Assembly (NCBI GenBank): GCA_052389535.1
Contig: JBQTHU010000117.1
Span: 10,257-74,256 of the forward strand
Direction: 5' to 3'
From: Betaproteobacteria bacterium
GTDB lineage: Bacteria; Pseudomonadota; Gammaproteobacteria; Burkholderiales; SG8-41
Length of the DNA stretch: 64,000 bases
Positions 2,524-17,004 of this stretch are shown piece by piece. Within the stretch, counting starts at the first letter, position 1. Each line of letters opens with the position of its first letter. The notes under the pieces are model-generated. The model saw only the letters and a list, made by a program, of their open reading frames with translations, was not told the DNA's origin and made no database searches. The translations under genes were made by a program, and so were the position numbers.

Positions 2524-3416
2524 GCACCCTGCACCCGAAGATCTCGGTGGTCATTCTGACGCACAACCGGGCGCACGAGGTTGTGAACACGGTGCGTCAT
2601 ATGAGCGCGCTGCCCGAGCAGCCGCGCCTCGTAGTGGTGGACAACGCATCCAGCGACGGCACGGCCGAGCGGCTGAGGGCGCTGTTTCCGGAAATCACGC
2701 TGATTCGCGTGCAGGAGAACATCGGGGCGGCCGCGCGCAATGCCGGCGTGCGCCGCGTCGCGACGCCTTACGTCGCGTTCTGCGACGACGACACGGTGTG
2801 GGCGCCCGGCTCGCTCGCCACAGCGTGCGAACTGCTCGATGCCTGGCCCGGTATCGCGGCGCTCACCGCGCACGTGAGGGTAGGCCCGGAGCGGCGGGAC
2901 GATCCGGCCTGCGCCATGATGGACGCGAGCCCGCTTCCATCCACCGGACTGCCGGGCAAGGCGGTGCTCGGCTTTCTCGCCGGCGCGTGCGTCTTCCGGC
3001 GCGACACGTTTCTCGCCGTGGGCGGTTACGAGCCGAGATTCCTGATCGGCGGCGAGGAGGCGCTCCTCGCGATCGACCTCGTCGCCCGCGGGCACGTGGT
3101 GGTGTATTCGAGGGACCTGACCGTCTACCACCATCCCTCGACCCGGCGCAACGTGGCGCAGCGCCAGCGGCATACCGTGCGGAATGCATTGTGGGTCGCA
3201 TGGCTGCGCCGGCCATTCTGGAGCGCGCTCGGCTGCAGCGCGGACATCATCTCTCGCGCAGCGTGCAAACGCTCGGCGCTTGCCGGACTGATGGACGCGG
3301 CGCGCGAGCTGCCGTGGGTATTGCGCACGCGTCAGGTGATCCCGCCGCGCGTCGAAGCACTGTGCGTCCTGCTGGACAACCGCCGGCGGTTGGAACTGCC
3401 GCTACGATCTTCCTGA
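2520..3416 (+). CDS. Family 2 glycosyltransferase
   Basis: Only the last 299 codons of the 756-aa ORF look like a protein: KISVVILTHNRAHEV..VVVDNASSDGT..FCDDD (GT2). The start is uncertain. It is either CTG 2520, which overlaps the PIG-L stop and has GAGGAG 8 nt upstream, or GTG 2547. Confidence 0.75.
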   Translation: MSTLHPKISVVILTHNRAHEVVNTVRHMSALPEQPRLVVVDNASSDGTAERLRALFPEITLIRVQENIGAAARNAGVRRVATPYVAFCDDDTVWAPGSLATACELLDAWPGIAALTAHVRVGPERRDDPACAMMDASPLPSTGLPGKAVLGFLAGACVFRRDTFLAVGGYEPRFLIGGEEALLAIDLVARGHVVVYSRDLTVYHHPSTRRNVAQRQRHTVRNALWVAWLRRPFWSALGCSADIISRAACKRSALAGLMDAARELPWVLRTRQVIPPRVEALCVLLDNRRRLELPLRSS

Positions 3417-3454: not shown

Positions 3455-3670
3455 TCACTCGGCACGCGGCTTGCCGAACGCCTGCTCGGTCAGGATCGCG
3501 TCCTCGAAGCCGTGCACGCCATGCGTGCGTGCCGGATTCATGATCACGACATAGAGCACGCCGCTCTGCCCGATGGCGTGGTCCGTGGCGGCGCGCTGCA
3601 GAAGCGGCGCGAGAAAAGCAACCGCCTGCCGCCCCGCCGCGCGGTCGATGTAACGCTCCGAATACGACAT
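3455..3670 (-). CDS. Hypothetical 71-aa protein (possibly a truncated remnant)
   Basis: ATG ORF 12 nt downstream of the ABC fusion on the same strand. I recognise no family. It ends where the convergent plus block ends. Confidence 0.35.
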   Translation of the reverse strand: MSYSERYIDRAAGRQAVAFLAPLLQRAATDHAIGQSGVLYVVIMNPARTHGVHGFEDAILTEQAFGKPRAE

Positions 3671-3682: not shown

Positions 3683-6367
3683 TCATGCACCGGACTGCAT
3701 CGACCGGGCGGTCAGGTGCGCCACCGCGGTCAGCAGCTCCTCGGGCCTGACGGGCTTGCCGAGCTGCAGCTGAAATCCCGCGAGCAGCGCCCGCGTGCGG
3801 TCCTCGCCGCTCGCCAGTGCGACGGCCGGCATGCGTTTGGCAAGCCCGGTGCCGCGTCGTTCCTCGATGGCCCGCACGCGGCGGATCACGCTGTAGCCGT
3901 CCTCATCGGGCAGCGCGATATCCGAGATCAGCACATCGGGCCATTCTGCGGGGTCGAGCGTCTCGAGTTCGCGCACGGCATCCGTGGCGCGGCCGTAACT
4001 CAGCACGCGCGCGCCGTGCCCGGCGAGCGCCGCATGCAGCCGGTCGCGGTTTTCGTCGTCATCGATCAGCACCACGGTGAGACCGGCCATGTCGGGGGCC
4101 TCGCCCGGGCCGCCGTCCGCGACGCCGAGTTGCGGCCTCGCGAGAACCGGGGGAAGTGCACTTCGCAGCGGCAGCGTCATGGCATACGAGGTGCCGGTCG
4201 CATCCTCGATCTTTACCGTCACGAGATGGCCGCCGTGCTGCTCGGCGATCGCCCGGGCGCGCAGCGTGTCCGCAAGACGGGCCGTCGTTGCGCCCCGCCA
4301 CGGTGGTTGAGCGCTCGTCCCGGATGCAGCGCCCGTGTCGGTCACCGTCAACCGGGCCGTGCCATCGGTCTGGTCAACCCGGATCTCGACGCGTCCGCCG
4401 GGCACCGTCGCGCGTATCGCGTTCGCGCACAGGTCCCACACGGCCTGCTGCAGCAGCCCGGGGTCGCCCGCGACCGGTCCATCGGATGTAATGATGGCGT
4501 AGAGGTTGATTTGCCGCTCGTCGATCTCCGGACGCAGCCCGTCGACCACACCGGCAACGACGTTCGCCAGACTCACCGGCTGGAGCGCAAGCGTGCGCTC
4601 CACGCGGCGCAGCTCGCGTTCCTGCTGCTGTACCGACCACATCTGCGCATAGATGCCGCGTCGCTCGAGCAGCGCCCCGTGAGTGCCGCGCTCGACGATG
4701 CGGCCGTGCTCGAGCACCAGGATCTCGTGGGCGCCGACCACCGTGGACATGCGGTGCGCGATGACGAGCGTGGTACGATTCTCCGCGATGCGGTCCAGCT
4801 CGGCCTGGATCGCCTGCTCCGCGCGGGCGTCGAGCGCCGAGGTGGCTTCGTCGAAGATGATGATCGGCGGGTTCTTCAGTATCGCGCGGGCGATGGCGAT
4901 GCGCTGCTTCTCGCCGCCTGAAAGCTTCAGTCCGCGCTCGCCTACGACGGTTTCATACTGATCGGGCAGCGCCGCGACGAATTCATGCACGCGCGCCGCT
5001 CGCGCCGCCGCCAGCACTTCCTCGTGCGTCGCCCCGGGATGACCGTACGCGATGTTGAAGAAAATCGTCTCGTTGAAGAGCACCGTGTCCTGCGGCACGA
5101 TCCCCACGGCGCTGCGCAGGCTCTCCTGGGTGACCCGTCGCAGTGCCTGGCCGTCGATCTCGATCGCACCCTCGCCGGCATCGTAGAAGCGCAGCAGCAG
5201 GCGCGCGATGGTGGACTTGCCGGACCCGCTCCCGCCGACCACCGCGACCGTCTCGCCCGGCGCAATCCTGAAATCGACCTCATGCAGGATGCGGCGCCCG
5301 GCGTCGTAACCGAAGCTGACGTGGGTGAAGCGCACTTCACCGTGCCGCACGACGAGCGGCCGGGCGCCGGCCTCGTTCCGTATCTCGGGCTGCGCCGCGA
5401 GCAGAAAGAAGAGGCGCTCGATGTTGATCAGGGCGTCTTTCGCCTGCCGGAACACGAAGCCGAGCGCATTGAGGGGCAGGCACACCTGGATCACATAGGC
5501 ATTCACCAGCACGAGATCGCCGACCGTCATCGTGCCGCCTGCGACGCGCACGCTGGCATACAGCATGATGGCCGCCACGCCGACGGCGATGATGCCGCTC
5601 TGCCCGATGTGCAGCATCGAAAGGTGCCGCTGGTTGCGCACGCCTGCCTCGACCCAGTCGTGCATGATCGGTCCGAAGCGCGAGCCTTCGTACCGTTCGT
5701 TCGCGTAATACTTCACCGCCTCGTAGTTGAGCAGACTGTCGACGAGCCGGCTGTTGGCGCGGGAATCGAGCTCGTTCAGCGCGCGCTGATGGATCATGCG
5801 CTGTGCGGTGAAGGCGACGGTGAAAGTGGTGTACACCGCGAAGGTGAGCGTGATGATCATCGTCGGCCAGTAGCCGTAGCCGGCCGCAATGATCGCCATC
5901 ACCGCCACGATCTCCACCAGGGTGGGCACGATGGTGAAAAGCGCCACGCCGAGGAGAAAGCCGATGCCGGCGGTGCCGCGCTCGACTTCCCGGGTGAGGC
6001 GTCCGGTCTCGCGCTGCATGTGGAAGCGCGGCGTCAGCCCGAGCAGGTGTGCGAATACCCGGGCGGTGAAATCGGCGACCGTCTGCTGCGTTACGCGCGC
6101 GAACACGAGATCGCGCAGTTCGCCGAACAGCGTTCCGCCGAAGCGCAGCAGCGCATAAGCGATCAGCATGAAGACGGGCAGTATGTACGCCGTCTGCTCG
6201 GCGCTGAAGCCGTCGATGATCTGCTTGAGCGCAATCGGCACGGCGATGGTCGCCGCCTTGGCGAGCACCAGCAGCGCCAGCGCGGCGAGGATGCGGCCGC
6301 GAAAGCGCCACGCCGCGCTCGCCAGCACCCGCAGCACGTGGCGTCCGGTGGAGCGTTCCAGAGGCAT
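3683..6367 (-). CDS. ATM1/HMT1-type ABC exporter (TMD-NBD) fused to an HATPase_c-like domain and a response-regulator receiver domain
   Basis: A single 894-codon ORF. It carries DSLLNYEAVKYYANERYE (ATM1 hallmark), Walker A GGSGSGKST, signature LSGGEKQR and Walker B IIIFDEATSALD. These are followed by the kinase-like and receiver segments listed as the next two features. Confidence 0.9.
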   Translation of the reverse strand: MPLERSTGRHVLRVLASAAWRFRGRILAALALLVLAKAATIAVPIALKQIIDGFSAEQTAYILPVFMLIAYALLRFGGTLFGELRDLVFARVTQQTVADFTARVFAHLLGLTPRFHMQRETGRLTREVERGTAGIGFLLGVALFTIVPTLVEIVAVMAIIAAGYGYWPTMIITLTFAVYTTFTVAFTAQRMIHQRALNELDSRANSRLVDSLLNYEAVKYYANERYEGSRFGPIMHDWVEAGVRNQRHLSMLHIGQSGIIAVGVAAIMLYASVRVAGGTMTVGDLVLVNAYVIQVCLPLNALGFVFRQAKDALINIERLFFLLAAQPEIRNEAGARPLVVRHGEVRFTHVSFGYDAGRRILHEVDFRIAPGETVAVVGGSGSGKSTIARLLLRFYDAGEGAIEIDGQALRRVTQESLRSAVGIVPQDTVLFNETIFFNIAYGHPGATHEEVLAAARAARVHEFVAALPDQYETVVGERGLKLSGGEKQRIAIARAILKNPPIIIFDEATSALDARAEQAIQAELDRIAENRTTLVIAHRMSTVVGAHEILVLEHGRIVERGTHGALLERRGIYAQMWSVQQQERELRRVERTLALQPVSLANVVAGVVDGLRPEIDERQINLYAIITSDGPVAGDPGLLQQAVWDLCANAIRATVPGGRVEIRVDQTDGTARLTVTDTGAASGTSAQPPWRGATTARLADTLRARAIAEQHGGHLVTVKIEDATGTSYAMTLPLRSALPPVLARPQLGVADGGPGEAPDMAGLTVVLIDDDENRDRLHAALAGHGARVLSYGRATDAVRELETLDPAEWPDVLISDIALPDEDGYSVIRRVRAIEERRGTGLAKRMPAVALASGEDRTRALLAGFQLQLGKPVRPEELLTAVAHLTARSMQSGA
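3713..4084 (-). other. Receiver (REC) domain inside the ABC fusion (aa ~762-885)
   Basis: The acidic pair VVLIDDDEN, phospho-acceptor context VLISDIALPDEDG (Asp816, nt 3920-3922), AVALAS and QLGKP (conserved Lys) are all present. Confidence 0.8.
4163..4600 (-). other. Degenerate histidine-kinase catalytic (HATPase_c-like) domain inside the ABC fusion (aa ~590-735)
   Basis: The segment has N-box-like DLCANAIRAT, G1-like VTDTGA and a C-terminal AEQHGGHLVTV...MTLPL. There is no H-box: no His occurs between aa 564 and 710. The G2 GxGLG lid is absent. Confidence 0.6.
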
Positions 6368-6412
6368 GGAGGTCGGATCAGCCGGTGCGCATGCCGCGCC
6401 GGCGCTGCCGCC

Positions 6413-7411
6413 TCAGCTCGAGCCGCCGGAAAGGGCGTGCGCCGCGCCGGAAGAGACGGCGGCACGACTACCCAGCCGCGCTGCGAAGTAATCGATCGTG
6501 CGCATGAGTCCCTGCTGCAGCGATACGCGCGGCGTCCATTTCAGGATACTGCGCGCCGCCGCGATATCCGGACAGCGCCGCACCGGGTCGTCCTGAGGCA
6601 GCGGCTTGAACTCGACGCGCGAGGACGATCCCGTCATCCGAACCACGAGCCGGGCCAGTTCCAGAACGGTGCACTCCCGCGGATTCCCGAGATTGACCGG
6701 TGCATGAAGCTTTCCGGATCTCGACATCAGGCGCACCAGGCCCTCGACAAGGTCCGTGACATAGCAGAAGGACCGCGTCTGCGAGCCATCGCCGTACACC
6801 GTGACCGTTCCGCGGCGCAACGCCTGTACGATGAAGTTCGACACCACGCGGCCGTCATCGGCCTGCATGCGCGGCCCGTAGGTGTTGAATATGCGAGCAA
6901 TCCGCGCTTCGACGCCGCGCCGCCGCCGGTAATCGGAGAAGAAGGTCTCGGCGCAGCGTTTGCCTTCGTCGTAGCAGGAGCGCGGTCCGATGGGATTTAC
7001 GTGCCCCCAGTAGGTTTCGGACTGCGGATGCACCTGGGGGTCGCCGTAGACCTCGCTGGTGGACGCCTGCAGGATCTTCGCGCCCGTGCGCTGCGCGAGT
7101 TCGAGCAGGTTCATCGCGCCGCACACGCTGCTCTTGAGCGTCTGTATCGGGTCTTCCTGATATTGCACCGGTGACGCCGGACACGCGAGGTTGTAGATCT
7201 CGTCCGCCTTCGCGTCGAGCGGTTCGACGATGTCGTGGCGCACGAAGGTGAACCGCGAGCGGCCCATGAGATGCGCGATGTTCTCCAGCGCGCCGGTACG
7301 CAGGTTGTCGACGCACAGCACCTCGTATCCGGAGTCGAGCAGGCGCTCGCAAAGATGCGAGCCGAGAAAGCCGGCACCGCCGGTGACGAGGGCCCTGCGT
7401 TCAGCCGCCAA
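6413..7411 (-). CDS. UDP-glucuronate decarboxylase (UDP-xylose synthase type) / NAD-dependent epimerase-dehydratase
   Basis: [17 protein letters not shown], a YDEGKR catalytic region and overall UXS-like sequence. Both candidate starts are TTG (7432 or 7411). 7411 has GGAAAGGA 5 nt upstream. Confidence 0.85.
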
Positions 7412-7449
7412 TGTAATCCTTTCCGTGAGCAAAATCGCTGCGCTGATGA

Positions 7450-8397
7450 TCAGCCGCGCGCCACCGAAGCGAAGGCATCGCTCCAGTCGCGCGTGAAGCG
7501 CTCGATGCCGAACCGCTGCTGCGCGCTGGCGCGGGCGCCGCGGCCCAGCCTCTGCGCCAGTTCGGGGTCGGACAGCAGCGCCTGCATGCGCGCTATGAGC
7601 CTGTCCACGTCGGTATCGCAGTAACCGTTCACCCCGTCTCTGATCAGAGTCGGCATTTCGGTCGTCGCCAACGCCACGATGGGCAGCCCCACCATCATCG
7701 TTTCGATGACCGCGAGCCCGAGGCTCGTGTAGCGGATCGGGTTGAACAGGAAGCGATATTGCGCCGCAAAGCAGGGAAGATCGGCGTGCCGTATTTCACC
7801 CAGCCCGCCGCACTCCTCCGCACCCATGCCGACGAGATCGAGCGGAACGTGCCGCCGGACCTGATCGAATATATCGGCGCCCAGCCGCCGGCCCCGGCGT
7901 GCGAGGTGATTCACGATCACCAGCCCGCGCGCCACGTCGCCCGAGTAGCGAGCGCGCTCCGGCGCCACGACGCCGTGCTCGATCACCCGCGTCGGCGTGC
8001 GGCCGCTGTCCCACATCAGCCGGTTGAAGGGCGTCACGTGCACGAGCAAGACCTCCGGATCGTCCACCGGATGGCGCGTATCGGTGGGATGCTCGCGTGG
8101 CGGATCGTGCTCGAGATAGATGCGTGGAAGGCGCCGCTGCGCCGCGCTCAGATATTCGTACTGGTCGCGCAGATACTGCGCGTCGTCCTGGAACAGGATG
8201 CAGTCGAGCGGCTGCTCGCGCGCCGCGGCGACCGGCAGATCGTGCACGTTCGCGCCCCACGGCAGGTGTCCCCAGCGCCCGGTATAGCCGGGCGGGCGGT
8301 CCGGCTTCGACAGCACGTAGAACTCGTGCGGCACCTGCGCGAGGTAATAGAGGTAGCTGCCGTGGGTATGCCACGTGAGGATCTTCAGCGCACGCAT
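7450..8397 (-). CDS. Group 1 (GT-B) glycosyltransferase
   Basis: The internal start [15 protein letters not shown] was verified as cat at 8395-8397. The C-terminal [17 protein letters not shown] is a GT1 EX7E-like region. It overlaps the upstream GT9 stop by 13 nt. Confidence 0.8.
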
Positions 8398-9509
8398 GTC
8401 CGGGCGATGTCCCTCGGTGTGGATTTCCGCAGCATCGACCGCGCCTCGCCAATGACGGCGGCGGGGTGCACGCCGGTCGCGCACGGGTGGCCGATCGGAC
8501 AGATCTCGTACGCGCAAGGGCGACACTCAACCGGATGGTGCAGCACGCGGTGCCGGTCCGTGTCGAGCGGCGCCCAGCGCCGGAAGTCCGAGCCACTGCA
8601 TACGATGACGCTCGGTGTACGCACCGCCGCAGCGATATGTGAAACCCCCGTATCGTTCGCGACGAGCAGTCGCGCGTCCCCGATCAGCACGGCGAGCGCG
8701 CCGAGCGTCGTGGCGCCACTGAGATCGACTGCGGTATGGCGCATCGCTCCGAGGACGCTCCGTGCCAGCGCGCTTTCGCCCGCGGTGCCGGTGATGACGA
8801 CCTGGCAACCGTCGGACGCCAGCGCATCGGCCACCGCGGCGAAGCACTCGGCGCCCCAGCGCCGCGATGGCAGCTGCGAGCCGGGATGAACACACACATA
8901 GCGCGACGTGTCGATACCGCTTCGCGCGGCGAGCGCCGCCCACGCGTTGCGGTCATCTGCGCTCACCGGAAACTCCAGGCTGGTATCGCAGGCCGCGATG
9001 CCCAGTTCGCGCATCAGGCGCACGTAGCGCACGATTTCGTGCTCGTCTTCCCGCCACGGAAAAAACCGCTCGGGGTCCGGACCATAGCCGCGCGGCTCGT
9101 GATAGCCGGCGCACAGACGGGCGCCAAAGAGCGCCACGACAGCGTTGGTGAGCCGGCCGCTGCCGTGCAATTGCAGGGCCAGGTCATAGCGGCGGCCCTG
9201 CACCATGCTCAGGAACTCCGGAATCCGGCGCACCTCGCAACGTTCCGGCAGGCCGGGATAACCGGGAAATTCCGCGAAATCGTCGATGTAGCGTTTGAAG
9301 CGCGCGACAAACTCGCGCGCCCACGGCAGTCCCGCGAGCGTAATGCGCGCGCGCGGGCACGCCTGGCGCAGCGCGCGCAAAGCCGGCACCGCACACAGCA
9401 TGTCGCCAAGCTGCAGCGCGCGCAGGATGATGATGCTCCCCGGGGATGCGAGCCGGTTGTTCGTTCGCGCGCCGTCCGCGGATCGCTCACGCATGCCGCG
9501 CTCACGCAT
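8385..9509 (-). CDS. Family 9 glycosyltransferase (heptosyltransferase-like)
   Basis: IIILRALQLGDMLCAVPALRALR and the C-terminal Cys cluster CRPCAYEICPIGHPC are typical of GT9. The start is ATG 9509 or 9494; both lie in a 15-bp tandem duplication. Confidence 0.8.
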   Translation of the reverse strand: MRERGMRERSADGARTNNRLASPGSIIILRALQLGDMLCAVPALRALRQACPRARITLAGLPWAREFVARFKRYIDDFAEFPGYPGLPERCEVRRIPEFLSMVQGRRYDLALQLHGSGRLTNAVVALFGARLCAGYHEPRGYGPDPERFFPWREDEHEIVRYVRLMRELGIAACDTSLEFPVSADDRNAWAALAARSGIDTSRYVCVHPGSQLPSRRWGAECFAAVADALASDGCQVVITGTAGESALARSVLGAMRHTAVDLSGATTLGALAVLIGDARLLVANDTGVSHIAAAVRTPSVIVCSGSDFRRWAPLDTDRHRVLHHPVECRPCAYEICPIGHPCATGVHPAAVIGEARSMLRKSTPRDIARTCVR

Positions 9510-9514
9510 GCCGC
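9485..9514. repeat. Perfect 15-bp tandem duplication (gctcacgcatgccgc x2) spanning the stop/start junction of two genes
   Basis: Read directly: 9485-9499 equals 9500-9514. Each copy carries, on the minus strand, ATGCGTGA, which holds both an ATG and an out-of-frame TGA. Confidence 0.9.
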
Positions 9515-11226
9515 GTCTTCTCGAGGATGCAGGGGCCGATGACCAGCGCATCGAGCGGGGAGGTCATGAAACAGCGCACCGCGTCCTGCGGCGTGCACAC
9601 GATGGGCTCGCCCTGCGTGTTGAACGAGGTGTTGACCAGCACCGGCACGCCGGTGCGGCGTGCGAATGCCTCGATCAGCCGGTGGTAGAGCGGATGCTGG
9701 GCGCGGTTCACGGTCTGGATGCGCGCCGTCCCATCGACGTGGCAAACGCCCGGTATGCGGTCGGCGCGCTCGCGCACCACGTCGTGAATGAAGAGCATGA
9801 ATGGCGAGACGCCGGCGCCGACGAACCAGTCCGCAGCCTCCTCTTCCAGCACGACCGGCGCGACGGGGCGAAAGTCCTCGCGGTCCTTGATGGCGTTCAA
9901 CCGGTGCTGGATCTCCGCGGTGAGCGGAGAGGCGAGTATGGAGCGCGCCCCGAGCGCGCGCGGCCCGTATTCCATGCGCCCCTGGAACCAGCCGACGATG
10001 CGATCGGCGGCCAGTATCGCCGCCGTCTCTTCCGCAACGTCGTCCGCGCGGCGATACGGCAGCTTGGCGTAATCGAGCAGCGACCTGATGTCCTGCTCAG
10101 AGTACTCCGGCCCGAGGAACGCGTGCTCCATCTGCCACGAGCGCTCGCCGCGCGCGCGCCAATCGGTCCACAACGCCGCGCCGATTGCGGTGCCGGAATC
10201 GCCGGCAGCCGGCTGGACCCATACGCGGCGAAACAGGCCGGCATCGCGCACGCGCGCGTTCATCACGCAGTTGAGCGCGACCCCCCCTGCCAGGCACAGG
10301 TTGTCCGAGCCGGTCTCGTCCCTGAGCCAGCGCGCGAGCGCGACGACGGTCTCCTCCAGCACGAGCTGCAGCGAGCGCGCGATATCGAAGTGGCGCTCGC
10401 CGAACTCGGCGCCGCGTTCGCGTGCCGGCCCGAAGCGCTCGGCAAGCCGCAACGGTGCAATCGCGTACTGCCCGTTTCCGGACACTTGCACGATTTCACG
10501 GAAAGCGTCGGCGTACACCGGCTTGCCGTAGGAGGCGAGCGCCATCACCTTGTATTCGTCGGAGGAATGCAGGAATCCCAGGTGGCGCGTGACCTCCTCG
10601 TACAGCAGGCCCAGCGAATGCGGGACGCAAACCTGGCCGATCCGCCGGTATTCACGGCCCGTGTAATGTCCGTAGCAGGTACTGGCGCGCTCGCCGCGGC
10701 CGTCGAGCGTCATCACCGCCGTGTCTTCGAACGGCGCGGCAAGGAACGCGCTCGCCTCGTGCGACAGGTGATGGTCCACGAATCTCCAGTTCCACCTGCG
10801 TTGCGTCCTCGCACGCCTGAACCGCCGCTTCAGATGAAACGGCGCACCGTCTATCAATTGCCGTTCGGCGTTCACCACGTAGGAGAGCGACAGCGGCTCC
10901 CACGGTGAGAGCCAATCCGCGGAAGTATCATGCGCGCTCGGCTCGAGCGGCAGCGTGATCGTCGCATCGTGCCGGCGCTCGCCCAGCACCACGCCGGGGT
11001 TGAAGGAATAGGCGACGTAATCCAGATCGGAAAGCTCGATGCCTGCCGCGCCGAGACAGTAATCGATTGCGTGAAACGGCAGTTCCCAGGTGGTGAAAGG
11101 AACCGGCCGCTTGCCATGTTTGACCCGCGTAAAGCGCTCCTCTTCTGCAGCGGCCACCACTTTCCCGTCGCGGACGAGGCAGGCAGCGGAGTCGTGAAAT
11201 ACGGCGTTGATGCCGAGCGTCAGCAT
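9502..11226 (-). CDS. NodU/CmcH-family O-carbamoyltransferase
   Basis: The start MLTLGINAVFHDSAACLV was verified as cat at 11224-11226. The FVDHHLSHEASAF metal motif is present and the length (574 aa) is typical of the family. Confidence 0.9.
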   Translation of the reverse strand: MLTLGINAVFHDSAACLVRDGKVVAAAEEERFTRVKHGKRPVPFTTWELPFHAIDYCLGAAGIELSDLDYVAYSFNPGVVLGERRHDATITLPLEPSAHDTSADWLSPWEPLSLSYVVNAERQLIDGAPFHLKRRFRRARTQRRWNWRFVDHHLSHEASAFLAAPFEDTAVMTLDGRGERASTCYGHYTGREYRRIGQVCVPHSLGLLYEEVTRHLGFLHSSDEYKVMALASYGKPVYADAFREIVQVSGNGQYAIAPLRLAERFGPARERGAEFGERHFDIARSLQLVLEETVVALARWLRDETGSDNLCLAGGVALNCVMNARVRDAGLFRRVWVQPAAGDSGTAIGAALWTDWRARGERSWQMEHAFLGPEYSEQDIRSLLDYAKLPYRRADDVAEETAAILAADRIVGWFQGRMEYGPRALGARSILASPLTAEIQHRLNAIKDREDFRPVAPVVLEEEAADWFVGAGVSPFMLFIHDVVRERADRIPGVCHVDGTARIQTVNRAQHPLYHRLIEAFARRTGVPVLVNTSFNTQGEPIVCTPQDAVRCFMTSPLDALVIGPCILEKTRHA

Positions 11227-11237
11227 GCAGCCTCTCT

Positions 11238-12383
11238 TCAGTGGACGGTGGCGTACAGCGCCAGTGGACCGGTCGCGGAAGGCTCGCCGATGCCCGCTGA
11301 AGCGGGCTCGTTCAGCAGCCGCTCGGCCGCGGCCGCCACCGTTTCCGGCGCCACCCCGGCGAGACAGGCGTGATGCCCCGCAGGGCATACGCTGCGGTAG
11401 CAGAACCGGCACGGCACGTCGCAGAACAGCACTTCGCTCCGCACCTGCCACGGCGCGTGCTGGGGATTGGTAAGCGCGTAGAGATCGACGACCGGCGTGC
11501 CGAGTGCAGCGGCGATATGGACCGGCCCGGTGTTGTTCGCGACGAGGAGGGACGCCCGCTCCAGCAGCGCACCCAGTTGCGCGACGTCGAGTTGTCCGGC
11601 AAGCGAGTACGAGGCGCGCGCCATCGCCTGGCGTATGCCTTCCACCAGATGCGTCTCTTCCGCACTGCCGGTGAATACGACGGCCGCTTCAGAAAGACGC
11701 TGCAAAAGAAGGTCCATCGCCTGTGCATAGCGCAGCGCCGGGTAGCGGCGGGAGGCCGCGCTCGCGCCGGGATGTACGGCGATGAGCGTCGCGCGCTCGT
11801 CGATGCCGGCACGCGCCAGCGCGCGCTTCGTCGATGCCCACGCGCACGGCGGCACGGCAAAGGAAAGCCGCTCATCGTCGGTGCGGCAGCCTATCGTCGC
11901 GGCGAGATCGAGATGGCGCCGCACCTCGTGCCGTATGCGCTCGAGCGGTTCCGGGTCCCGGACCCAGTCGGTCAACAGCCCGTAGGGATTCTCGCGGCAG
12001 TGCGCGAGCCGCAGCGGAATACCCGCGAGATAGCACAGGTATGCGGCAGGCAGCGGATTCTGGCTGTATACCGTGAAGATCACGGCCGCATCGAACCGCC
12101 GGCGCTTCAGTTCCTCGATGAGCGCCGCATCGTGCGGCGGAGCGCTCCCGGCCGGCTTCATCCACGGCGCATCGAAGGCGATCGCCTCGTCCACGTCCGG
12201 AATGAACGGCGCAACCGCGGCGCCGGAGCGGGAGGTGAGGAGCGTCAGCCTGCGTCCGGCCGCGCCCCGCCTCAGCGCCCGCAGCGCCGGCGTCGTCATC
12301 AGCACGTCGCCCATGCTGTCGAGCCGCACGCACAACACCCGATCGGCGCGGCGCCAGCCCAGCGTGCCCGGCGTGCCGTTCAT
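11238..12383 (-). CDS. Family 9 glycosyltransferase (heptosyltransferase-like)
   Basis: The start is MNGTPGTL (cat at 12381-12383). RVLCVRLDSMGDVLMTTPALRAL and the C-terminal CRFCYRSVCPAGHHAC are GT9-like. It forms an ATGA overlap with the upstream gene. Confidence 0.85.
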   Translation of the reverse strand: MNGTPGTLGWRRADRVLCVRLDSMGDVLMTTPALRALRRGAAGRRLTLLTSRSGAAVAPFIPDVDEAIAFDAPWMKPAGSAPPHDAALIEELKRRRFDAAVIFTVYSQNPLPAAYLCYLAGIPLRLAHCRENPYGLLTDWVRDPEPLERIRHEVRRHLDLAATIGCRTDDERLSFAVPPCAWASTKRALARAGIDERATLIAVHPGASAASRRYPALRYAQAMDLLLQRLSEAAVVFTGSAEETHLVEGIRQAMARASYSLAGQLDVAQLGALLERASLLVANNTGPVHIAAALGTPVVDLYALTNPQHAPWQVRSEVLFCDVPCRFCYRSVCPAGHHACLAGVAPETVAAAAERLLNEPASAGIGEPSATGPLALYATVH

Positions 12384-12973
12384 TGCGCCGCGCGACTCCC
12401 GGCGCGGCTCGCGAGGATGATCTGCGCCGCGGCCAGGAGGTCCTCGGCGAGCGCCTCGGGCCAGCGTTGGCCGCTCATGTCCCACTCCGTCTCGTTGCCG
12501 TTGTCGATGAGGATGGTGCGGCAGCGTGCGCGCCGCCCCGCCTCGATGTCGTCCAGGATGTCGCCCACCATCCAGGAGCGCGTAAGCTCGATGCCGTGCT
12601 CGCGCGCCGCCTGTGTGAGCAAGCCGCTGTCGGGCTTGCGACAGGCGCAATGGACGGCATAGTCCGGCAATGCTCCATGCGGATGGTGCGGGCAGTAGTA
12701 AAAACCTTCGAGCCTGACCCCGCGCTCGCCGAGTTCCTCGCTGATGTGGCGCTCCACCCTGCTCAATGCCTGCTCGGAGAACCGGCCGAGCGCGACGCCG
12801 GGCTGATTCGATACAACGAACAGGCGGAATCCCCGGTCGGCGAGCAGGCGCAAACCCTCGACGGCGCCCGGTGTGAAACGGATGAATGCCGGATCGACGT
12901 TGTACGGCACGTTCTCGATCAGCGTGCCATCCTTGTCGAGAAACACGGCGCGCCCGCCCTGCTTCACGGCCAT
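12380..12973 (-). CDS. HAD-IIIA phosphatase, D,D-heptose 1,7-bisphosphate phosphatase (GmhB)-like
   Basis: AVFLDKDGTLI (DxDGT), VVSNQ, the Zn motif YYCPHHP...CACRKP and MVGD are present. The start MAVKQGG was verified (cat at 12971-12973). Confidence 0.85.
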   Translation of the reverse strand: MAVKQGGRAVFLDKDGTLIENVPYNVDPAFIRFTPGAVEGLRLLADRGFRLFVVSNQPGVALGRFSEQALSRVERHISEELGERGVRLEGFYYCPHHPHGALPDYAVHCACRKPDSGLLTQAAREHGIELTRSWMVGDILDDIEAGRRARCRTILIDNGNETEWDMSGQRWPEALAEDLLAAAQIILASRAGSRAAQ

Positions 12974-13689
12974 GACGTCTCCCGCATCGGCAGCACCATT
13001 ATCTCCGGTATGACGGTCTCGTCGGGCTGCGTCAGAATGAATTTCACCGCGGCGGCGACGTGGGCGGGATCCTGCAGCACGCCCGGATCGATATCGGGAA
13101 AGCGATCGAGCAGAAACGGCGTCCTCATGCCTCCCGCGATCACCGCGCTCACCTTGATCCGGCGCGGACGCAGTTCCGCATGGAGCGCATGCGTGAGCCC
13201 GAGCAGCCCCCACTTGCTCGCGTGATACGCGGAGGCGTTGGGCCAGGCGCGGCGCGCAGCGGTCGAGGCGATGTTGACGATATGCCCGCCGCCCTGCCGT
13301 TCCATGACTGCACCCGCGAACTTGGAAAGCAGGAACGGACCGCGCAGGTTGGTCGCAATGACGGCGTCCCACTGCGCAACGCTCAGTTCACTGAGCGGCA
13401 GGGTGTGGTCCACCGCCGCGTTATTGACGAGGATGTCCAGTTTCCCGTAGCGCTCCCGCACTTGCGCTACGCACGTTCGCGCGCTGTCTTCGTTGCGCAC
13501 GTCGAGCTTCCACGCCGCGCAGCGGCCACCGTCGCGCTCGAGCGTCCCGGCGAGCGCGCGGGCCCGCTCCAGGTCGAGATCCGCAATGGCCACGAGCGCA
13601 TGCTCGCCCACGAGCGCCCGCGCGATCTCCGCGCCCAGACCGCGCCCGGCACCGCTGACGATCGCGACGCGTCCCTCGAGCATGCTCAT
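12964..13689 (-). CDS. Short-chain dehydrogenase/reductase
   Basis: VSGAGRGLG cofactor motif, NNAAV and the YHASK catalytic motif. It overlaps the downstream gene by 10 nt and the upstream gene by 4 nt. Confidence 0.85.
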   Translation of the reverse strand: MSMLEGRVAIVSGAGRGLGAEIARALVGEHALVAIADLDLERARALAGTLERDGGRCAAWKLDVRNEDSARTCVAQVRERYGKLDILVNNAAVDHTLPLSELSVAQWDAVIATNLRGPFLLSKFAGAVMERQGGGHIVNIASTAARRAWPNASAYHASKWGLLGLTHALHAELRPRRIKVSAVIAGGMRTPFLLDRFPDIDPGVLQDPAHVAAAVKFILTQPDETVIPEIMVLPMRETSWP

Positions 13690-14996
13690 CGCGCGGAGAC
13701 CCGGGTTGGCTGCTGAAACGCGCTGCCCGCGGAGGCGTGCTTGCCGCCGGCGAATTCCGCGCTGTTGCGGGGCGCCAGCTCGTCGTACAACGCCGCCATG
13801 GAGCGTGCGACGCGCTCCCAGGTGAAGTGCTTCTGTACCCGCTTCAGGCCGTTACGGCCGAACCGCGCGAGCAGGGGAGGATTGCGATAGAGGTCGGCCA
13901 GCCGGCTCGCCAGCGCGTCCGGATCGTTGGGCGGGATGAGATAGCCGGTAACGCCGTCCACCACGCTGTGCTTGATGCCGCCCACCGCGGAGCCCACGAC
14001 CGGCGTCCCGCACGCCATGGCTTCGAGCGGCGTGATGCCGAACGGCTCGTACCAGGGCGTGGTCACGAACACGTCGGCGGCGCTGTAATAGAGTTTGAGC
14101 ACTTCGCGGCTGCGCCGCCCGGTGAAAAGCGTCTGCTCGCCGACGCCTTCCGACCGCGCGATCTCACGCAGCCGCGCGAGTTCCGGAGTCGCCGCGCAAT
14201 CCGGCGCATCGGTGTTTCCCCCTATGATCACCAGGCGCGGCCGCATCCCGCTGCACCGCGCGAGGCGGCCCAGCGCGCGTATCACGTTGTCGACACCCTT
14301 GCGCGGCACCATGCGCCCGATGTGCAGCACGATGCGCTCGTCGCTGTCGAAACCGAGCAGGCGCCGCGCGAAGGCGCGCCGTACGGGCCAGAATTCCCGC
14401 GCGTCAAAACCGCACGGGATGGTGCGGATCTTGTCGCGCTCCGCGCCATACAGCGAAATCAAGTCGAGGCAGTCCTGCGGACATTCCGCGATGATGGCGT
14501 CGGCATGCTCTACCGTTCGGTCCTCGATGTCGATGCGCTCATCCGGGAACTGGTCGGCTTCCCGCTGGTGCAGGCGTCTCACGCGCCCGAGCGCATGAAA
14601 CGTGACGACGAACGGTATGCCGAACAGCTGCTTCAGGCCGAGCGCCACCATGCCCGACATGAAGAAATTGGCATGCACGACGTCATAGCCGGCTTCCCGG
14701 TCGCAGAACTGGGCGACGCGCGCGGTGAACTCCGGCATGACCGGAAGCATCGACTCCTTGCGCAGGGCGTCCTCGGGACCGGCGCGCACGTGCACGACGC
14801 GCAGGCCTTTCGCCACTTCGACGACTTCGGGCAGCGCAGGATTGTCGCGCCGGGTGAAGACGTCGAGCTCGTATCCCAGAGCGTGAACGTGACGCGCGAT
14901 GCTGGCTACATAGATGTTCTGGCCGCCGCTGTCGATGCCGCCGGCAACCGCCAGCGGGGAAGCGTGGTCACTGATGACTGCGATCCTGCTCGCCAT
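13686..14996 (-). CDS. Group 1 glycosyltransferase, sucrose-phosphate-synthase-like GT-B
   Basis: ISDHASPLAVAGGIDSGGQNIYV is an SPS-like N-domain and EPFGITPLEAMACGTPVV is the GT1 signature. SD AGGAG lies 5 nt upstream of ATG 14996. Confidence 0.85.
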   Translation of the reverse strand: MASRIAVISDHASPLAVAGGIDSGGQNIYVASIARHVHALGYELDVFTRRDNPALPEVVEVAKGLRVVHVRAGPEDALRKESMLPVMPEFTARVAQFCDREAGYDVVHANFFMSGMVALGLKQLFGIPFVVTFHALGRVRRLHQREADQFPDERIDIEDRTVEHADAIIAECPQDCLDLISLYGAERDKIRTIPCGFDAREFWPVRRAFARRLLGFDSDERIVLHIGRMVPRKGVDNVIRALGRLARCSGMRPRLVIIGGNTDAPDCAATPELARLREIARSEGVGEQTLFTGRRSREVLKLYYSAADVFVTTPWYEPFGITPLEAMACGTPVVGSAVGGIKHSVVDGVTGYLIPPNDPDALASRLADLYRNPPLLARFGRNGLKRVQKHFTWERVARSMAALYDELAPRNSAEFAGGKHASAGSAFQQPTRVSAR

Positions 14997-15093
14997 AGTA
15001 CTCCTGTATTACCGTTGGCATCGAAAGCGACGTAACTGGAGGTCTCGCCACAGCGGGCGCCCATGCGGGCGGAAAGAACGGCGCATGGGGTGC

Positions 15094-15109
15094 AGCAAAC
15101 CGCATGCCA
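15094..15109 (-). promoter_or_regulatory. Sigma-54-type -24/-12 promoter candidate for the glycan operon
   Basis: The minus-strand sequence is TGGCATGCGGTTTGCT, against the consensus TGGCACG-N4-TTGCW. The GG to GC spacing is correct. It lies about 87-100 nt upstream of ATG 14996. Confidence 0.5.
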
Positions 15110-15324
15110 CTTCTCGAAGCACACTGCGGCCCGCGCGCGCCAGACGCCGTGCGCCGCGTGAAGCGGTGCTCGCTCGATACAAGCCGCTTTAACTGCCGCC
15201 AGCTCGCCCCGCCGCCGCCCGCACGGAGCAGCCTCGTCGTGGAAGCAGTTTTTCCCGTGCCGCTGCGTAAGATTTACCGGGCAGAGCGTTCGCTGCTTTT
15301 CCGCGGCACGGGCAGCGCCGCACT

Positions 15325-15340
15325 CGGCATGTCCATTGCT
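15325..15340 (+). promoter_or_regulatory. Weaker sigma-54-type -24/-12 candidate upstream of the metallothionein-SDR gene
   Basis: The plus-strand sequence is CGGCATGTCCATTGCT. Spacing is correct but the first base is C instead of T. It ends 25 nt before ATG 15365, which would leave a very short leader without an SD. Confidence 0.3.
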
Positions 15341-15364
15341 TCTGCGCAGGCGAGTCGCAACCCA

Positions 15365-15532
15365 ATGACGCAGCGTTCGGACCCATCGAAATGCAGGCAT
15401 GCCACGTGCGAATGCACCGTGGAATCGAGTCTCGCCTACTGCTGCGAATACTGCGCGCGGGCCGACCAGCAGGAGACCGGCGCCTACCAGCACCATGCAT
15501 GCGAATGCGGCCATCCTGAATGCAGCCAGGAG
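15365..15532 (+). other. Cys/His-rich metallothionein-like domain (8 Cys, 4 His in the first 53 aa)
   Basis: The pattern C-x-H-x2-C-x-C ... C-C-x2-C-A ... C-x-C-G-H-x2-C parallels SmtA as I recall it (KCACEPCLCNV ... YYCSEACA ... GCGHTGCNC). Confidence 0.65.
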
Positions 15533-16474: not shown

Positions 16475-16497
16475 ATCCCGGTGCGCTCGCAGGCGGC

Positions 16498-16968: not shown

Positions 16969-17004
16969 GAGCACTCTCCTTGGGTTGAACGCCCCCCACG
17001 GAGG

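What the first reader, a model, noticed from the sequence alone, without database searches (positions are those of the whole stretch)
7450..15109. Tightly coupled glycoconjugate operon with an O-carbamoyltransferase sandwiched between two GT9 enzymes
Seven minus-strand CDS run in this order: SPS-like GT1, SDR, GmhB-type phosphatase, GT9, NodU/CmcH carbamoyltransferase, GT9, GT1. Their junctions are -4 (ATGA), -10, -4 (ATGA), +11, -8 (ATGCGTGA) and -13 nt, which leaves no room for internal promoters. The first cistron has AGGAG 5 nt upstream and a -24/-12 element further upstream. A UDP-xylose-synthase-type decarboxylase, the ABC-REC fusion and a 71-aa ORF follow on the same strand with 12-45 nt gaps.

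GT9 enzymes classically add heptose to Kdo2-lipid A, and 7-O-carbamoyl-heptose is a known inner-core decoration in Pseudomonas aeruginosa. This locus, however, has no waaA, gmhA, hldE or lipid A genes nearby. It instead brings its own bisphosphate phosphatase, an SDR and a sucrose-phosphate-synthase-like GT1. The product may therefore be a carbamoylated heptose-containing glycan on a non-classical acceptor, possibly exported or regulated through the adjacent ABC-REC protein.
Basis: partly seen in the sequence, partly recalled or inferred. Interest (0 to 1): 0.6.

Follow-up and report, generated by a model that had tools for sequence, protein, structure and literature searches.

The report
LPS-independent heptose-carbamoyl glycan gene cassette
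The operon is real and belongs to an apparently unstudied sugar-assembly gene set, shared by at least twelve bacterial phyla, that seems to use the LPS sugar heptose and a carbamoyl group to build something other than LPS.

Summary
All seven minus-strand genes, their domains and every junction (-4, -10, -4, +11, -8, -13) are as described. So are the AGGAG, the -24/-12 element and the three downstream genes.

The cluster is larger than reported: ugd, a membrane-anchored GT2, a PIG-L deacetylase and a second GT2 converge on it at 1-3416.

It is one copy of a cassette found in at least 12 phyla. The seven-gene core is GT4, GmhB-like HAD, GT9a, carbamoyltransferase, GT2tm, GT9b and GT1b.

Four results argue against the LPS core:
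- The cassette occurs in Chloroflexota.
- It carries its own gmhA/hldE where LPS heptose is absent.
- It lies on secondary replicons in Burkholderia and Ralstonia.
- Both GT9s fall outside WaaC/F/Q.

The "sandwich" is a derived layout. In 71 of 80 loci the carbamoyltransferase is followed by the GT2, not a GT9, so carbamoylation of heptose is not established.

The SPS/MshA-like GT4 keeps invariant acceptor-phosphate ligands, which suggests a phosphorylated small-molecule primer. The sigma-54 promoter is conserved in 16 betaproteobacterial loci.

The product is unknown, and no paper on the cassette was found.

The parts
15095..15109 (-). sigma-54 type -24/-12 promoter element, TGGCATgcggtTTGC, about 100 nt upstream of g1
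   Evidence: Found. It is an island of identity with L082 in an otherwise diverged spacer. An equivalent TGGCAC-N5-xTGC lies 52-89 nt upstream of the GT4 gene in 16 betaproteobacterial loci, against about 0.14 expected by chance.
15001..15005 (-). Shine-Dalgarno AGGAG, 4 nt before the g1 ATG
   Evidence: Read from the sequence.
13686..14996 (-). g1: GT4 retaining glycosyltransferase of the sucrose-phosphate-synthase / MshA clade; proposed priming enzyme acting on a phosphorylated acceptor
   Evidence: Pfam and NCBIfam, (MshA model 289.6 bits, below its cutoff). Best solved relatives are TeSPS 6KIH (1.3e-79) and MshA 3C48 (2.7e-64). The residues matching the TeSPS acceptor-phosphate ligands (K80, R154) and the catalytic H134 are invariant in 61 orthologues (PMC7264703).
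12964..13689 (-). g2: classical short-chain dehydrogenase/reductase; accessory gene, present in 29 of 80 loci
12380..12973 (-). g3: HAD-IIIA phosphatase, GmhB-like (DxDGT motif and a Cys/His zinc loop)
   Evidence: it passes the HAD-IIIA and histidinol-phosphatase domain models, and scores 137 bits on the GmhB model against a cutoff of 178. Orthologues lie next to gmhA and hldE in non-proteobacterial loci.
11238..12383 (-). g4: GT9a, a heptosyltransferase-family enzyme of a distinct clade, with Asn at the position of WaaC Asp261
9502..11226 (-). g5: O-carbamoyltransferase of the NodU/TobZ/NovN type, with Kae1-like and YrdC-like domains
   Evidence: It is 60-68% identical across phyla in nearly all of the 80 loci.
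8385..9509 (-). g6: GT9b, a second heptosyltransferase-family enzyme of a distinct clade; the catalytic Asp residues are retained
7450..8397 (-). g7: GT1b, a divergent GT-B glycosyltransferase; only its C-terminal domain is recognisable by sequence
6413..7432 (-). g8: UDP-glucuronate decarboxylase (UXS)-like extended SDR; an accessory gene almost confined to Betaproteobacteria (33 of 40 loci there, plus one other Pseudomonadota locus)
3683..6367 (-). g9: MsbA/NdvA-like ABC half-transporter fused to HATPase_c and a receiver domain; accessory gene restricted to Betaproteobacteria
3455..3670 (-). g10: a 71-aa ORF that is the N-terminal remnant of a conserved 155-175-aa protein family (f21)
2520..3416 (+). 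GT2b: soluble family-2 glycosyltransferase. The start is uncertain: CTG at 2520 overlapping the PIG-L stop, or GTG at 2547.
1840..2523 (+). PIG-L family de-N-acetylase
832..1809 (+). GT2tm: MftF-like family-2 glycosyltransferase with C-terminal membrane helices. This is the gene that follows the carbamoyltransferase directly in 71 of 80 related loci.
1..681 (+). 3' part of a UDP-glucose 6-dehydrogenase gene (ugd), cut by the window edge; it would supply UDP-GlcA to the UXS-like enzyme

Best explanation
This is the local copy of a widely transferred, LPS-independent glycan-assembly cassette.

Proposed mechanism:
1. A soluble SPS/MshA-type GT4 (g1) glycosylates a phosphorylated small-molecule acceptor, a sugar phosphate or polyol phosphate. 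Heptose-7-P or sedoheptulose-7-P are attractive guesses.
2. The GmhB-like HAD (g3) removes a phosphate. It certainly serves ADP-heptose supply and may also act on the primed intermediate.
3. Two dedicated GT9 enzymes (g4, g6) add heptose from ADP-heptose.
4. GT1b and the membrane-anchored MftF-like GT2tm add further sugars.
5. The TobZ/NodU-type enzyme (g5) O-carbamoylates one sugar. That sugar may be the one handled by GT2tm rather than a heptose.

In this betaproteobacterium, accessory genes add a pentose route (ugd plus UXS giving UDP-Xyl), a HexNAc-to-HexN step (GT2b plus PIG-L) and an MsbA/NdvA-like ABC exporter with a HATPase-REC tail. The minus-strand genes are read as one sigma-54-dependent transcript.

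Shown here: gene content, domain identities, synteny across phyla, linkage to heptose-pathway genes, conserved acceptor-phosphate ligands and a conserved promoter.

Inferred: every substrate, the order of steps, that the product is a free or exported oligosaccharide or glycoside, and its role (stress protectant or signal).
For: Synteny. Using the carbamoyltransferase as probe, 599 of 600 matched stretches in GTDB species genomes encode a relative, and that is a lower bound. The 80 best are nearly all 60-68% identical (one truncated contig reaches 72%) and come from Betaproteobacteria, Chloroflexota, Bacteroidota, Cyanobacteria, Gemmatimonadota, Acidobacteriota, Planctomycetota, Verrucomicrobiota, Nitrospirota, Bdellovibrionota and others. 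All seven core genes lie within +-10 kb in 47 of 80 loci, and at least six in 60 of 80.

Heptose supply. An hldE gene (NCBIfam HldE model 379.7 bits; its adenylyltransferase domain passes the cutoff) and gmhA are embedded in the cluster in Chloroflexota, Bacteroidota and Acidobacteriota. gmhA alone is embedded in the two Nitrospirota loci. In Betaproteobacteria gmhA is absent from all 40 loci and hldE gives one hit in 40.

Not the LPS core:
- The cassette is present in the Dictyobacter aurantiacus isolate genome and in a Herpetosiphonaceae genome.
- It lies on B. multivorans chromosome 3 and on Ralstonia chromosome 2.
- GT9a and GT9b form their own clades, are about 25% identical to E. coli WaaF/C/Q, and fall below the NCBIfam equivalog cutoffs.
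- The window holds no waaA, waaP, gmhA or hldE homologue.

Phosphorylated primer. The best solved relatives of g1 are TeSPS and MshA. The positions matching the TeSPS sucrose-6-phosphate ligands Arg105 and Arg178 (PMC7264703) are K80 and R154, invariant in 61 orthologues.

Soluble enzymes. GT2tm and the ABC protein are the only proteins with convincing membrane segments.

Exporter type varies by lineage: ABC in Betaproteobacteria and MFS in some Acidobacteriota, Bacteroidota and Gemmatimonadota loci.

Regulation. The -24/-12 element is conserved. Two sigma-54 activator genes sit next to the B. multivorans copy. No internal promoters or terminators were found.
Against: - No product has been observed, and no donor or acceptor is established.
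- All characterised GT9 enzymes of the WaaC/F/Q type act on lipid-anchored acceptors.
- The universal core includes a membrane-anchored GT2, and the exporter here is MsbA-like. Both fit a lipid-linked intermediate.
- The gene inventory (two GT9, GT4s, a carbamoyltransferase, PIG-L, an MsbA-like ABC) resembles the Pseudomonas core-OS cluster (PMC8005017).
- The HAD may be nothing more than GmhB, which would leave the GT4 product phosphorylated.
- GT9a has Asn at the position of WaaC Asp261 in every orthologue, so its donor may not be ADP-heptose.
- Many loci show no exporter within +-10 kb.
- The statement that Chloroflexota lack LPS rests on general knowledge. It was not tested here.
Confidence: 0.45

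Rival explanations
1. The cassette builds a membrane glycolipid, an LPS-core-like oligosaccharide on a lipid other than Kdo2-lipid A. GT2tm would act at the membrane, and an MsbA-like ABC protein would flip the product in Betaproteobacteria.
For: - The known acceptors of GT9 enzymes are lipid-anchored (general knowledge).
- GT2tm has C-terminal membrane helices and belongs to the universal core.
- The best NCBIfam model for the ABC protein is MsbA (403.6 bits).
- The gene inventory parallels the Pseudomonas core-OS cluster, which includes PIG-L and msbA (PMC8005017).
Against: - No acyltransferase, lipid-synthesis, polyprenyl-phosphate priming, Wzx/Wzy or ligase gene occurs in any of the 80 neighbourhoods.
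- The ABC protein is restricted to Betaproteobacteria, and other phyla carry an MFS transporter or nothing.
- The GT4 keeps sugar-phosphate-type acceptor ligands.
- The fold search for GT2tm put a small-molecule GT (AvpGT) and teichoic-acid GTs first. The only membrane-anchored GT2 hit (PcManGT) ranked eighth, and no GtrB- or DPMS-type polyprenyl-phosphate GT was listed.
Confidence: 0.25
2. In this Gram-negative host the operon is an alternative or conditional LPS inner-core pathway. Under sigma-54 control it would add carbamoylated heptose branches to Kdo2-lipid A, as in Pseudomonas.
For: - Two GT9 genes lie beside a carbamoyltransferase, and 7-O-carbamoyl-heptose is known from the Pseudomonas core (PMC8005017; one search found that term in connection with LPS only for Pseudomonas).
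- GT9a scores 133.5 bits on the WaaF model, against a cutoff of 134.6.
Against: - Orthologues at 50-65% identity occur in Chloroflexota, with their own gmhA and hldE.
- The cassette sits on secondary replicons in Burkholderia and Ralstonia, whose core loci are elsewhere (the location of the core loci is general knowledge).
- The window has no waaA or waaP.
- The GT9s form clades distinct from WaaC/F/Q/U.
- The strongest conserved partner of the carbamoyltransferase is a GT2, not a GT9.
Confidence: 0.08
3. The GT9 enzymes O-heptosylate a protein, in the manner of TibC/Aah, and the other enzymes decorate that protein glycan.
For: GT9b gives a weak hit to the Aah/TibC model (18.7 bits, E 7e-4). 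A small conserved protein of unknown function (f21) is linked to the cluster in Betaproteobacteria.
Against: - The hit is far below the cutoff of 200 bits.
- No autotransporter or repeat-rich substrate gene is conserved near the cluster.
- f21 is absent outside Betaproteobacteria and is truncated in this window.
Confidence: 0.04

Closest known systems
Pseudomonas LPS core-OS cluster (waaF, waaC, waaG, wapH, wapO/PA5005, PIG-L PA5002, msbA), which makes 7-O-carbamoyl-HepII
   Same: Two GT9 genes, GT4 genes, a NodU/CmcH-type carbamoyltransferase, a PIG-L deacetylase and an MsbA-like ABC protein lie in one locus. Heptose and carbamoyl chemistry are the likely common ground (PMC8005017).
   Different: - No waaA, no waaP-type heptose kinases and no lipid A context.
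- The GT9s form separate clades below the WaaC/F/Q cutoffs.
- The cassette is found in phyla without LPS heptose or without LPS, and there it carries its own gmhA and hldE.
- The carbamoyltransferase is coupled to a GT2.
- The first enzyme is SPS/MshA-like.
- Orthology to WapO could not be tested, because no WapO sequence was available.
Sugar-phosphate synthase plus phosphatase modules: cyanobacterial SPS/SPP with glucosylsucrose synthase (tll1590/tll1591), and MshA/MshA2/MshB of mycothiol
   Same: g1 is most similar to TeSPS and MshA and keeps their acceptor-phosphate ligands. A HAD phosphatase follows it, directly or one or two genes later, in most loci, and a PIG-L (MshB-type) deacetylase is linked here. 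The precedent is an oligosaccharide built by further GTs on the primed disaccharide (PMC7264703, PMC9909042).
   Different: - g1 scores below both equivalog cutoffs.
- Phe replaces the Tyr found at position 111 in both relatives.
- The phosphatase is GmhB-type, not SPP-type.
- GT1b shows only generic GT-B similarity to the glucosylsucrose synthase.
- The extension here involves GT9s and a carbamoyltransferase.
ADP-heptose-dependent natural-product pathways in bacteria without LPS heptose (septacidin, hygromycin B)
   Same: A private gmhA/hldE/gmhB set is embedded in a biosynthetic cluster so that heptose can be used outside LPS. This rests on general knowledge; the primary paper is listed in the references of PMC9978623.
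   Different: Those clusters are narrow actinomycete antibiotic pathways with different transferases. This cassette is conserved at 60-68% identity across at least 12 phyla and uses two GT9 enzymes.
MftF, the mycofactocin glycosyltransferase
   Same: The best family match of GT2tm (153.5 bits). Both are GT2 enzymes with C-terminal membrane helices, and MftF acts on a small molecule (its function is general knowledge).
   Different: The score is below the cutoff of 280 bits, and there are no mft genes. The radical SAM/SPASM gene linked in non-proteobacterial loci is only distantly MftC-like (72 bits).

Membership tests
LPS inner-core heptosyltransferases WaaC/WaaF/WaaQ | GT9 domain (PF01075) with the N-terminal catalytic Asp (WaaC Asp13) | tested here: met
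   PF01075 E 2.5e-28 for g4 and 2e-28 for g6. The Asp is conserved in all GT9a and GT9b orthologues in the alignment with E. coli WaaC.
LPS inner-core heptosyltransferases WaaC/WaaF/WaaQ | Score above the NCBIfam equivalog cutoffs for heptosyltransferase I, II or III | tested here: not met
   On the heptosyltransferase II model (cutoff 134.6), GT9a scores 133.5 and GT9b 94.1. All other models score far below their cutoffs. Both are about 25% identical to the E. coli enzymes and form separate clades.
LPS inner-core heptosyltransferases WaaC/WaaF/WaaQ | Genomic and taxonomic tie to Kdo2-lipid A biosynthesis | tested here: not met
   No waaA or waaP in the 64-kb window. Orthologous clusters occur in Chloroflexota, including the Dictyobacter isolate genome, and on secondary replicons.
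LPS inner-core heptosyltransferases WaaC/WaaF/WaaQ | Second conserved Asp (WaaC Asp261) in the donor-sugar site | tested here: inconclusive
   Kept in almost all GT9b orthologues (NDTG). Replaced by Asn (NNTG/NNSG) in every GT9a orthologue. The functional meaning is unknown.
NodU/CmcH/TobZ O-carbamoyltransferases | Full-length Kae1-like N domain plus YrdC-like C domain | tested here: met
   PF02543 matched at 3-346 of 346 and PF16861 at 1-170 of 170. Solved relatives are NovN (7e-99), GdmN and TobZ.
NodU/CmcH/TobZ O-carbamoyltransferases | Membership of a named equivalog (NodU), or orthology to WapO | tested here: not met
   The NodU model scores 198 bits against a cutoff of 1000. WapO could not be compared, because no sequence was available in the tools.
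GmhB (D-glycero-D-manno-heptose 1,7-bisphosphate 7-phosphatase) | HAD-IIIA fold with a DxDGT nucleophile motif and a Cys/His zinc loop | tested here: met
   TIGR01662 scores 104.6 bits (cutoff 44.6) and TIGR01656 scores 123 bits (cutoff 84.15). The motifs FLDKDGT and CPHHP...CACRKP are visible in the translation.
GmhB (D-glycero-D-manno-heptose 1,7-bisphosphate 7-phosphatase) | Score above the GmhB equivalog or subfamily cutoffs | tested here: not met
   137 bits against a cutoff of 178 (NF006506), and 127 bits against 149.6 (TIGR00213).
GmhB (D-glycero-D-manno-heptose 1,7-bisphosphate 7-phosphatase) | Linkage to gmhA and hldE | tested here: met
   Orthologues lie between or beside gmhA and hldE in L020, L055, L054, L012, L002 and others. 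There is no such linkage in this window.
SPS/MshA clade of GT4 (retaining glycosyltransferases with a phosphorylated acceptor) | Catalytic His and Glu plus the basic residues that bind the acceptor phosphate | tested here: met
   H134, the EX7E glutamates, K80 and R154 align with TeSPS H158, E331/E339, R105 and R178 (PMC7264703). K80, R154 and H134 are invariant in 61 orthologues.
SPS/MshA clade of GT4 (retaining glycosyltransferases with a phosphorylated acceptor) | Score above the MshA or SPS equivalog cutoffs | tested here: not met
   MshA 289.6 bits against a cutoff of 462.5; SPS GT domain 141.9 bits against 576.
sigma-54-dependent promoter | GG and GC dinucleotides at the canonical spacing, upstream of the first cistron, conserved in orthologous loci | tested here: met
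   No activator gene (GAFTGA motif) lies in the window. Two lie beside the B. multivorans copy. Dependence on RpoN is not testable here.

The most novel reading that the evidence does not exclude
The cassette makes a previously undescribed class of free or exported bacterial glycan. It would be a small carbamoylated heptose-containing oligosaccharide or glycoside, primed by an SPS-like enzyme on a sugar phosphate. One possibility is heptose-7-P or sedoheptulose-7-P, with the GmhB-like phosphatase then freeing O-7. The glycan would be spread by horizontal transfer through soil and freshwater bacteria of at least 12 phyla, including monoderm Chloroflexota, and would serve as a stress protectant or signal. 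That would give ADP-heptose and GT9 enzymes a major role outside LPS.
Probability: 0.3. Interest if true: 0.75.

Novelty: new variant of a known kind. Interest (0 to 1): 0.6.

Why it matters
GT9 heptosyltransferases and ADP-heptose are textbook markers of the LPS inner core. ADP-heptose is also an innate-immune agonist.

A seven-gene cassette with strongly conserved sequences and gene linkage places two GT9s and a carbamoyltransferase in bacteria that lack LPS heptose, or lack LPS altogether. That points to an unrecognised heptose glycan with a broad ecological distribution.

It also shows that annotating these genes as "LPS heptosyltransferase" is probably wrong in hundreds of genomes. Tractable carriers exist for direct testing: the Burkholderia cepacia complex, Cupriavidus, Paraburkholderia and Chitinophaga.

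Tried and rejected
- Exact-sequence look-ups of the carbamoyltransferase and of P0121 found no contig. The source organism is known only as an NCBI "MAG: Betaproteobacteria bacterium", from a 100%-identical GT2.
- All ten full-text literature searches found no paper on this cluster. They used combinations of carbamoyltransferase, heptosyltransferase, GT9, PIG-L, HldE, RpoN and carrier taxa. The sigma-54 comparative paper does not mention it.
- I considered that the Burkholderia copy belongs to the low-oxygen "lxa" locus. The lxa paper mentions no glycosyl, carbamoyl or heptose genes, so I rejected the idea.
- I considered that GT1b is a glucosylsucrose-synthase homologue paired with the SPS-like GT4. 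A 20-sequence profile shows only generic GT-B C-domain similarity, with BshA, TreT and TeSPS all scoring higher. I rejected it as a specific link.
- The AlphaFold model of GT2tm (pLDDT 85) and a PDB fold search returned generic GT-A hits (AvpGT, TarP, PcManGT, K4CP). This does not settle whether the acceptor is a lipid or a small molecule.
- Rfam found no riboswitch or sRNA in 1-17500.
- No sigma-54 activator is encoded in the window.
- The first ORF-clustering pass was contaminated by alternative-frame ORFs of high-GC loci. I replaced it with tblastn maps.

Full report
**Observation.** The ORF layout, start codons and junctions were re-derived from the sequence. Seven minus-strand genes run from 14996 down to 7450, with junctions of -4 (ATGA), -10, -4 (ATGA), +11, -8 (ATGCGTGA) and -13 nt. 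Pfam and NCBIfam confirm the stated domain classes:
- a GT4 most like MshA/SPS;
- a classical SDR;
- a GmhB-like HAD-IIIA phosphatase;
- a GT9;
- a full-length two-domain O-carbamoyltransferase;
- a second GT9;
- a divergent GT1-type enzyme.

AGGAG lies 4 nt before the first ATG, and TGGCATgcggtTTGC lies at 15095-15109. A UXS-like gene, an ABC_membrane+ABC_tran+HATPase_c+REC fusion and a 71-aa ORF follow at gaps of 17, 45 and 12 nt. No sigma-70-like promoter or credible terminator lies inside. Base composition is uniform.

**The unit is larger than reported.** Four plus-strand genes converge on the 71-aa ORF:
- the 3' end of ugd (1-681);
- a family-2 glycosyltransferase with C-terminal membrane helices, "GT2tm" (832-1809);
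- a PIG-L deacetylase (1840-2523);
- a second GT2 (about 2520-3416).

A metagenomic relative (L082, carbamoyltransferase 82% identical) has the same flanks and the same two converging units, but lacks UXS and ugd. The rest of the window holds ordinary chromosomal genes such as rho, pgi, fumC, rsgA and a thiolase. A 100%-identical GT2tm is deposited as "MAG: Betaproteobacteria bacterium".

**Comparative genomics.** The carbamoyltransferase has thousands of close relatives in metagenomes. The best 80 loci are nearly all 60-68% identical (one truncated contig reaches 72%) yet span many groups: Betaproteobacteria, Gammaproteobacteria, Chloroflexota (including the Dictyobacter aurantiacus isolate genome and a Herpetosiphonaceae genome), Bacteroidota, Cyanobacteria, Gemmatimonadota, Acidobacteriota, Planctomycetota, Verrucomicrobiota, Nitrospirota and Bdellovibrionota.

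tblastn maps give a universal core of GT4, HAD, GT9a, carbamoyltransferase, GT2tm, GT9b and GT1b. All seven lie within +-10 kb in 47 of 80 loci, and at least six in 60 of 80. Most of the remaining loci are short contigs.

Accessory genes depend on lineage:

| Lineage | Accessory genes |
|---|---|
| Betaproteobacteria (almost exclusively) | UXS, the ABC-HATPase-REC fusion, the f21 protein, PIG-L, GT2b |
| Other phyla (almost exclusively) | hldE, gmhA, a radical SAM/SPASM enzyme, a third GT2, an MFS transporter |

**The "sandwich" is not conserved.** In 71 of 80 loci the gene directly after the carbamoyltransferase is GT2tm. GT9a precedes the carbamoyltransferase in 46 of 80. The direct carbamoyltransferase-GT9b junction seen here is a minority rearrangement, shared with L082, in which GT2tm has moved to the converging unit. 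The tightest functional partner of the carbamoyltransferase is therefore the MftF-like GT2 (153.5 bits on the MftF model, below its cutoff), not the GT9 pair. Which sugar is carbamoylated remains open.

**Heptose.** In Chloroflexota, Bacteroidota and Acidobacteriota copies, an hldE gene and a gmhA homologue sit inside the cluster, often flanking the HAD. The two Nitrospirota copies carry gmhA but no hldE within reach. The hldE gene scores 379.7 bits on the HldE model, and its adenylyltransferase domain passes the cutoff. Typical orders are GT4-gmhA-HAD-hldE-GT9a in L055 and gmhA-HAD-hldE-GT9a-GT9a in L020. gmhA is absent from all 40 betaproteobacterial loci and hldE gives one hit in 40. The gmhA query was the E. 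coli sequence recalled from memory. The hits of 24-46% identity (E 1e-9 to 4e-43) validate it.

This is the strongest evidence that the HAD works as GmhB and that the GT9s use ADP-heptose. No HldD-type epimerase is linked in those phyla, so the donor may be the D,D-heptose form. That is an inference.

**Not the LPS core.**
- The window has no waaA, waaP, gmhA or hldE.
- GT9a and GT9b are about 25% identical to E. coli WaaF/C/Q and fall below every equivalog cutoff. GT9a misses the WaaF model narrowly, at 133.5 against 134.6.
- In a neighbour-joining tree the two form phylum-spanning clades apart from WaaC, WaaF, WaaQ and WaaU.
- The WaaC Asp13 position is conserved in both. The Asp261 position is Asp in almost all GT9b orthologues but Asn in every GT9a orthologue. 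This is unexplained.
- The cassette lies on chromosome 3 of B. multivorans and chromosome 2 of a Ralstonia, and it occurs in Chloroflexota. By general knowledge, Chloroflexota lack LPS.

**The priming enzyme.** The best solved relatives of g1 are the Thermosynechococcus sucrose-phosphate synthase (6KIH, 1.3e-79) and MshA (2.7e-64). Both glycosylate phosphorylated acceptors. In TeSPS, Arg105 and Arg178 hold the phosphate of sucrose-6-phosphate, and His158 and Glu331 are essential (PMC7264703). After correcting for a +3 numbering offset, these align with K80, R154, H134 and the conserved Glu of g1. K80, R154, Q26 and H134 are invariant in 61 orthologues. A phosphorylated small-molecule acceptor is therefore likely, though its identity is unknown. 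A HAD follows the GT4, directly or one or two genes later, in most loci. This recalls SPS/SPP, and MshA/MshA2/MshB when PIG-L is included. The cyanobacterial tll1590/tll1591 pair shows that further GTs can extend such a primer into stress oligosaccharides (PMC9909042).

**Regulation.** The -24/-12 element is the only well-conserved block in the g1 upstream spacer when compared with L082. A matching TGGCAC-N5-xTGC lies 52-89 nt upstream of the GT4 start in 16 betaproteobacterial loci. From the background density of 335 sites in 1.47 Mb, about 0.14 would be expected by chance. Ralstonia copies carry a second site upstream of the ABC gene. The window has no activator gene. The B. multivorans copy is flanked by two.

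**Model.** Soluble enzymes build a hetero-oligosaccharide on a phosphorylated primer:
1. g1 primes the acceptor.
2. g3 dephosphorylates and supports ADP-heptose supply.
3. g4 and g6 add heptose.
4. g7 and GT2tm add further sugars, and g5 adds the carbamoyl group.

In this organism there are also xylose (ugd and UXS), HexN (GT2b and PIG-L) and ABC export. Only GT2tm and the ABC protein have convincing membrane segments. The exporter class varies between phyla, which fits a small exported product better than a conserved lipid-linked one. Every substrate assignment is an inference.

**Rivals.**
- Membrane glycolipid (0.25). It is favoured by GT9 precedent, by GT2tm and by the MsbA-like ABC protein. 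It is disfavoured by the lack of any lipid or priming genes and by the features of the GT4.
- Conditional LPS-core pathway (0.08). It is disfavoured by the taxonomic spread.
- Protein heptosylation (0.04). It rests only on an 18.7-bit hit to the TibC model.

**Known systems and literature.** The closest analogue by gene inventory is the Pseudomonas core-OS cluster with wapO (PMC8005017). The closest analogue by logic is a sugar-phosphate synthase, a phosphatase and elongating GTs. Private ADP-heptose supply outside LPS has precedent in septacidin and hygromycin B (general knowledge). Ten full-text searches found nothing on this cassette. No NCBIfam equivalog covers any of its proteins. The search reached only open-access papers and bioRxiv, so a prior description cannot be excluded.

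**Verdict.** The value added here has five parts:
- the operon is one instance of a pan-phylum, LPS-independent heptose/carbamoyl cassette;
- the sandwich layout is derived;
- the unit extends to 1-3416;
- the priming enzyme points to a phosphorylated acceptor;
- sigma-54 control is conserved in Betaproteobacteria.

I rate it a new variant of a known kind, with interest 0.6.

Noticed in passing
window 3455-3670 (-): The 71-aa ORF is the N-terminal 45% of a conserved 155-175-aa protein (f21), which has the motifs GxSGxLxxVxMxP, WDADYAAYARAKA and GIVVGVSGA. The motifs look DUF336/GlcG-like, but there was no Pfam hit. The C-terminal half is missing here, so this copy is probably a remnant.
   Followed up: partly
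window 3683-6367 (-): The ABC exporter carries HATPase_c and a receiver domain, but no recognisable HisKA/DHp domain or phospho-acceptor His between the nucleotide-binding domain and the HATPase. It looks like a kinase-dead sensor tail. The architecture is conserved in betaproteobacterial copies (L081, L082).
   Followed up: partly
window 11238-12383 (-) and all GT9a orthologues: Every GT9a orthologue has Asn (NNTG/NNSG) where WaaC, WaaF, WaaQ, WaaU and nearly all GT9b orthologues have Asp (the WaaC Asp261 position). This may mean a different donor sugar or a changed mechanism.
   Followed up: partly
related loci L002, L006, L011, L028, L050, L052, L054, L069, L070: A highly conserved radical SAM/SPASM enzyme (68-76% identical across phyla) follows GT2tm or lies next to the carbamoyltransferase. 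It is found mainly where UXS and ugd are absent, and only rarely in Betaproteobacteria (3 of 40 loci). It may be an alternative, BlsE-like route to a pentose residue, but this is speculative.
   Followed up: no
window 2520-2547 (+): GT2b has no canonical start codon near its expected N-terminus. Either CTG at 2520 is used, forming CTGA with the PIG-L stop and lying 9 nt after AGAGGAG, or GTG at 2547 is used, which would clip the first beta-strand.
   Followed up: partly
window 28974-33638 (+): A prkA / DUF444 (yeaH) / spoVR operon lies 14 kb from the cluster. This operon is associated with starvation responses. A hemerythrin gene and a YghA-like SDR with a Cys/His-rich N-terminal extension (15104-16474) lie directly upstream of the sigma-54 promoter region.
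   Followed up: no
locus L010 (NVTD01000059.1, labelled Candidatus Wolfebacteria): This 7.4-kb contig has Ralstonia-type gene order and a sigma-54 site identical to those of two Ralstonia loci. It is probably a mis-binned betaproteobacterial contig rather than a CPR genome.
   Followed up: no
window 34901-36595 (+): A 564-aa ORF matches only the middle part of the carbohydrate phosphorylase family (profile positions 320-583 of 713). It may be a truncated or divergent glucan phosphorylase.
   Followed up: no
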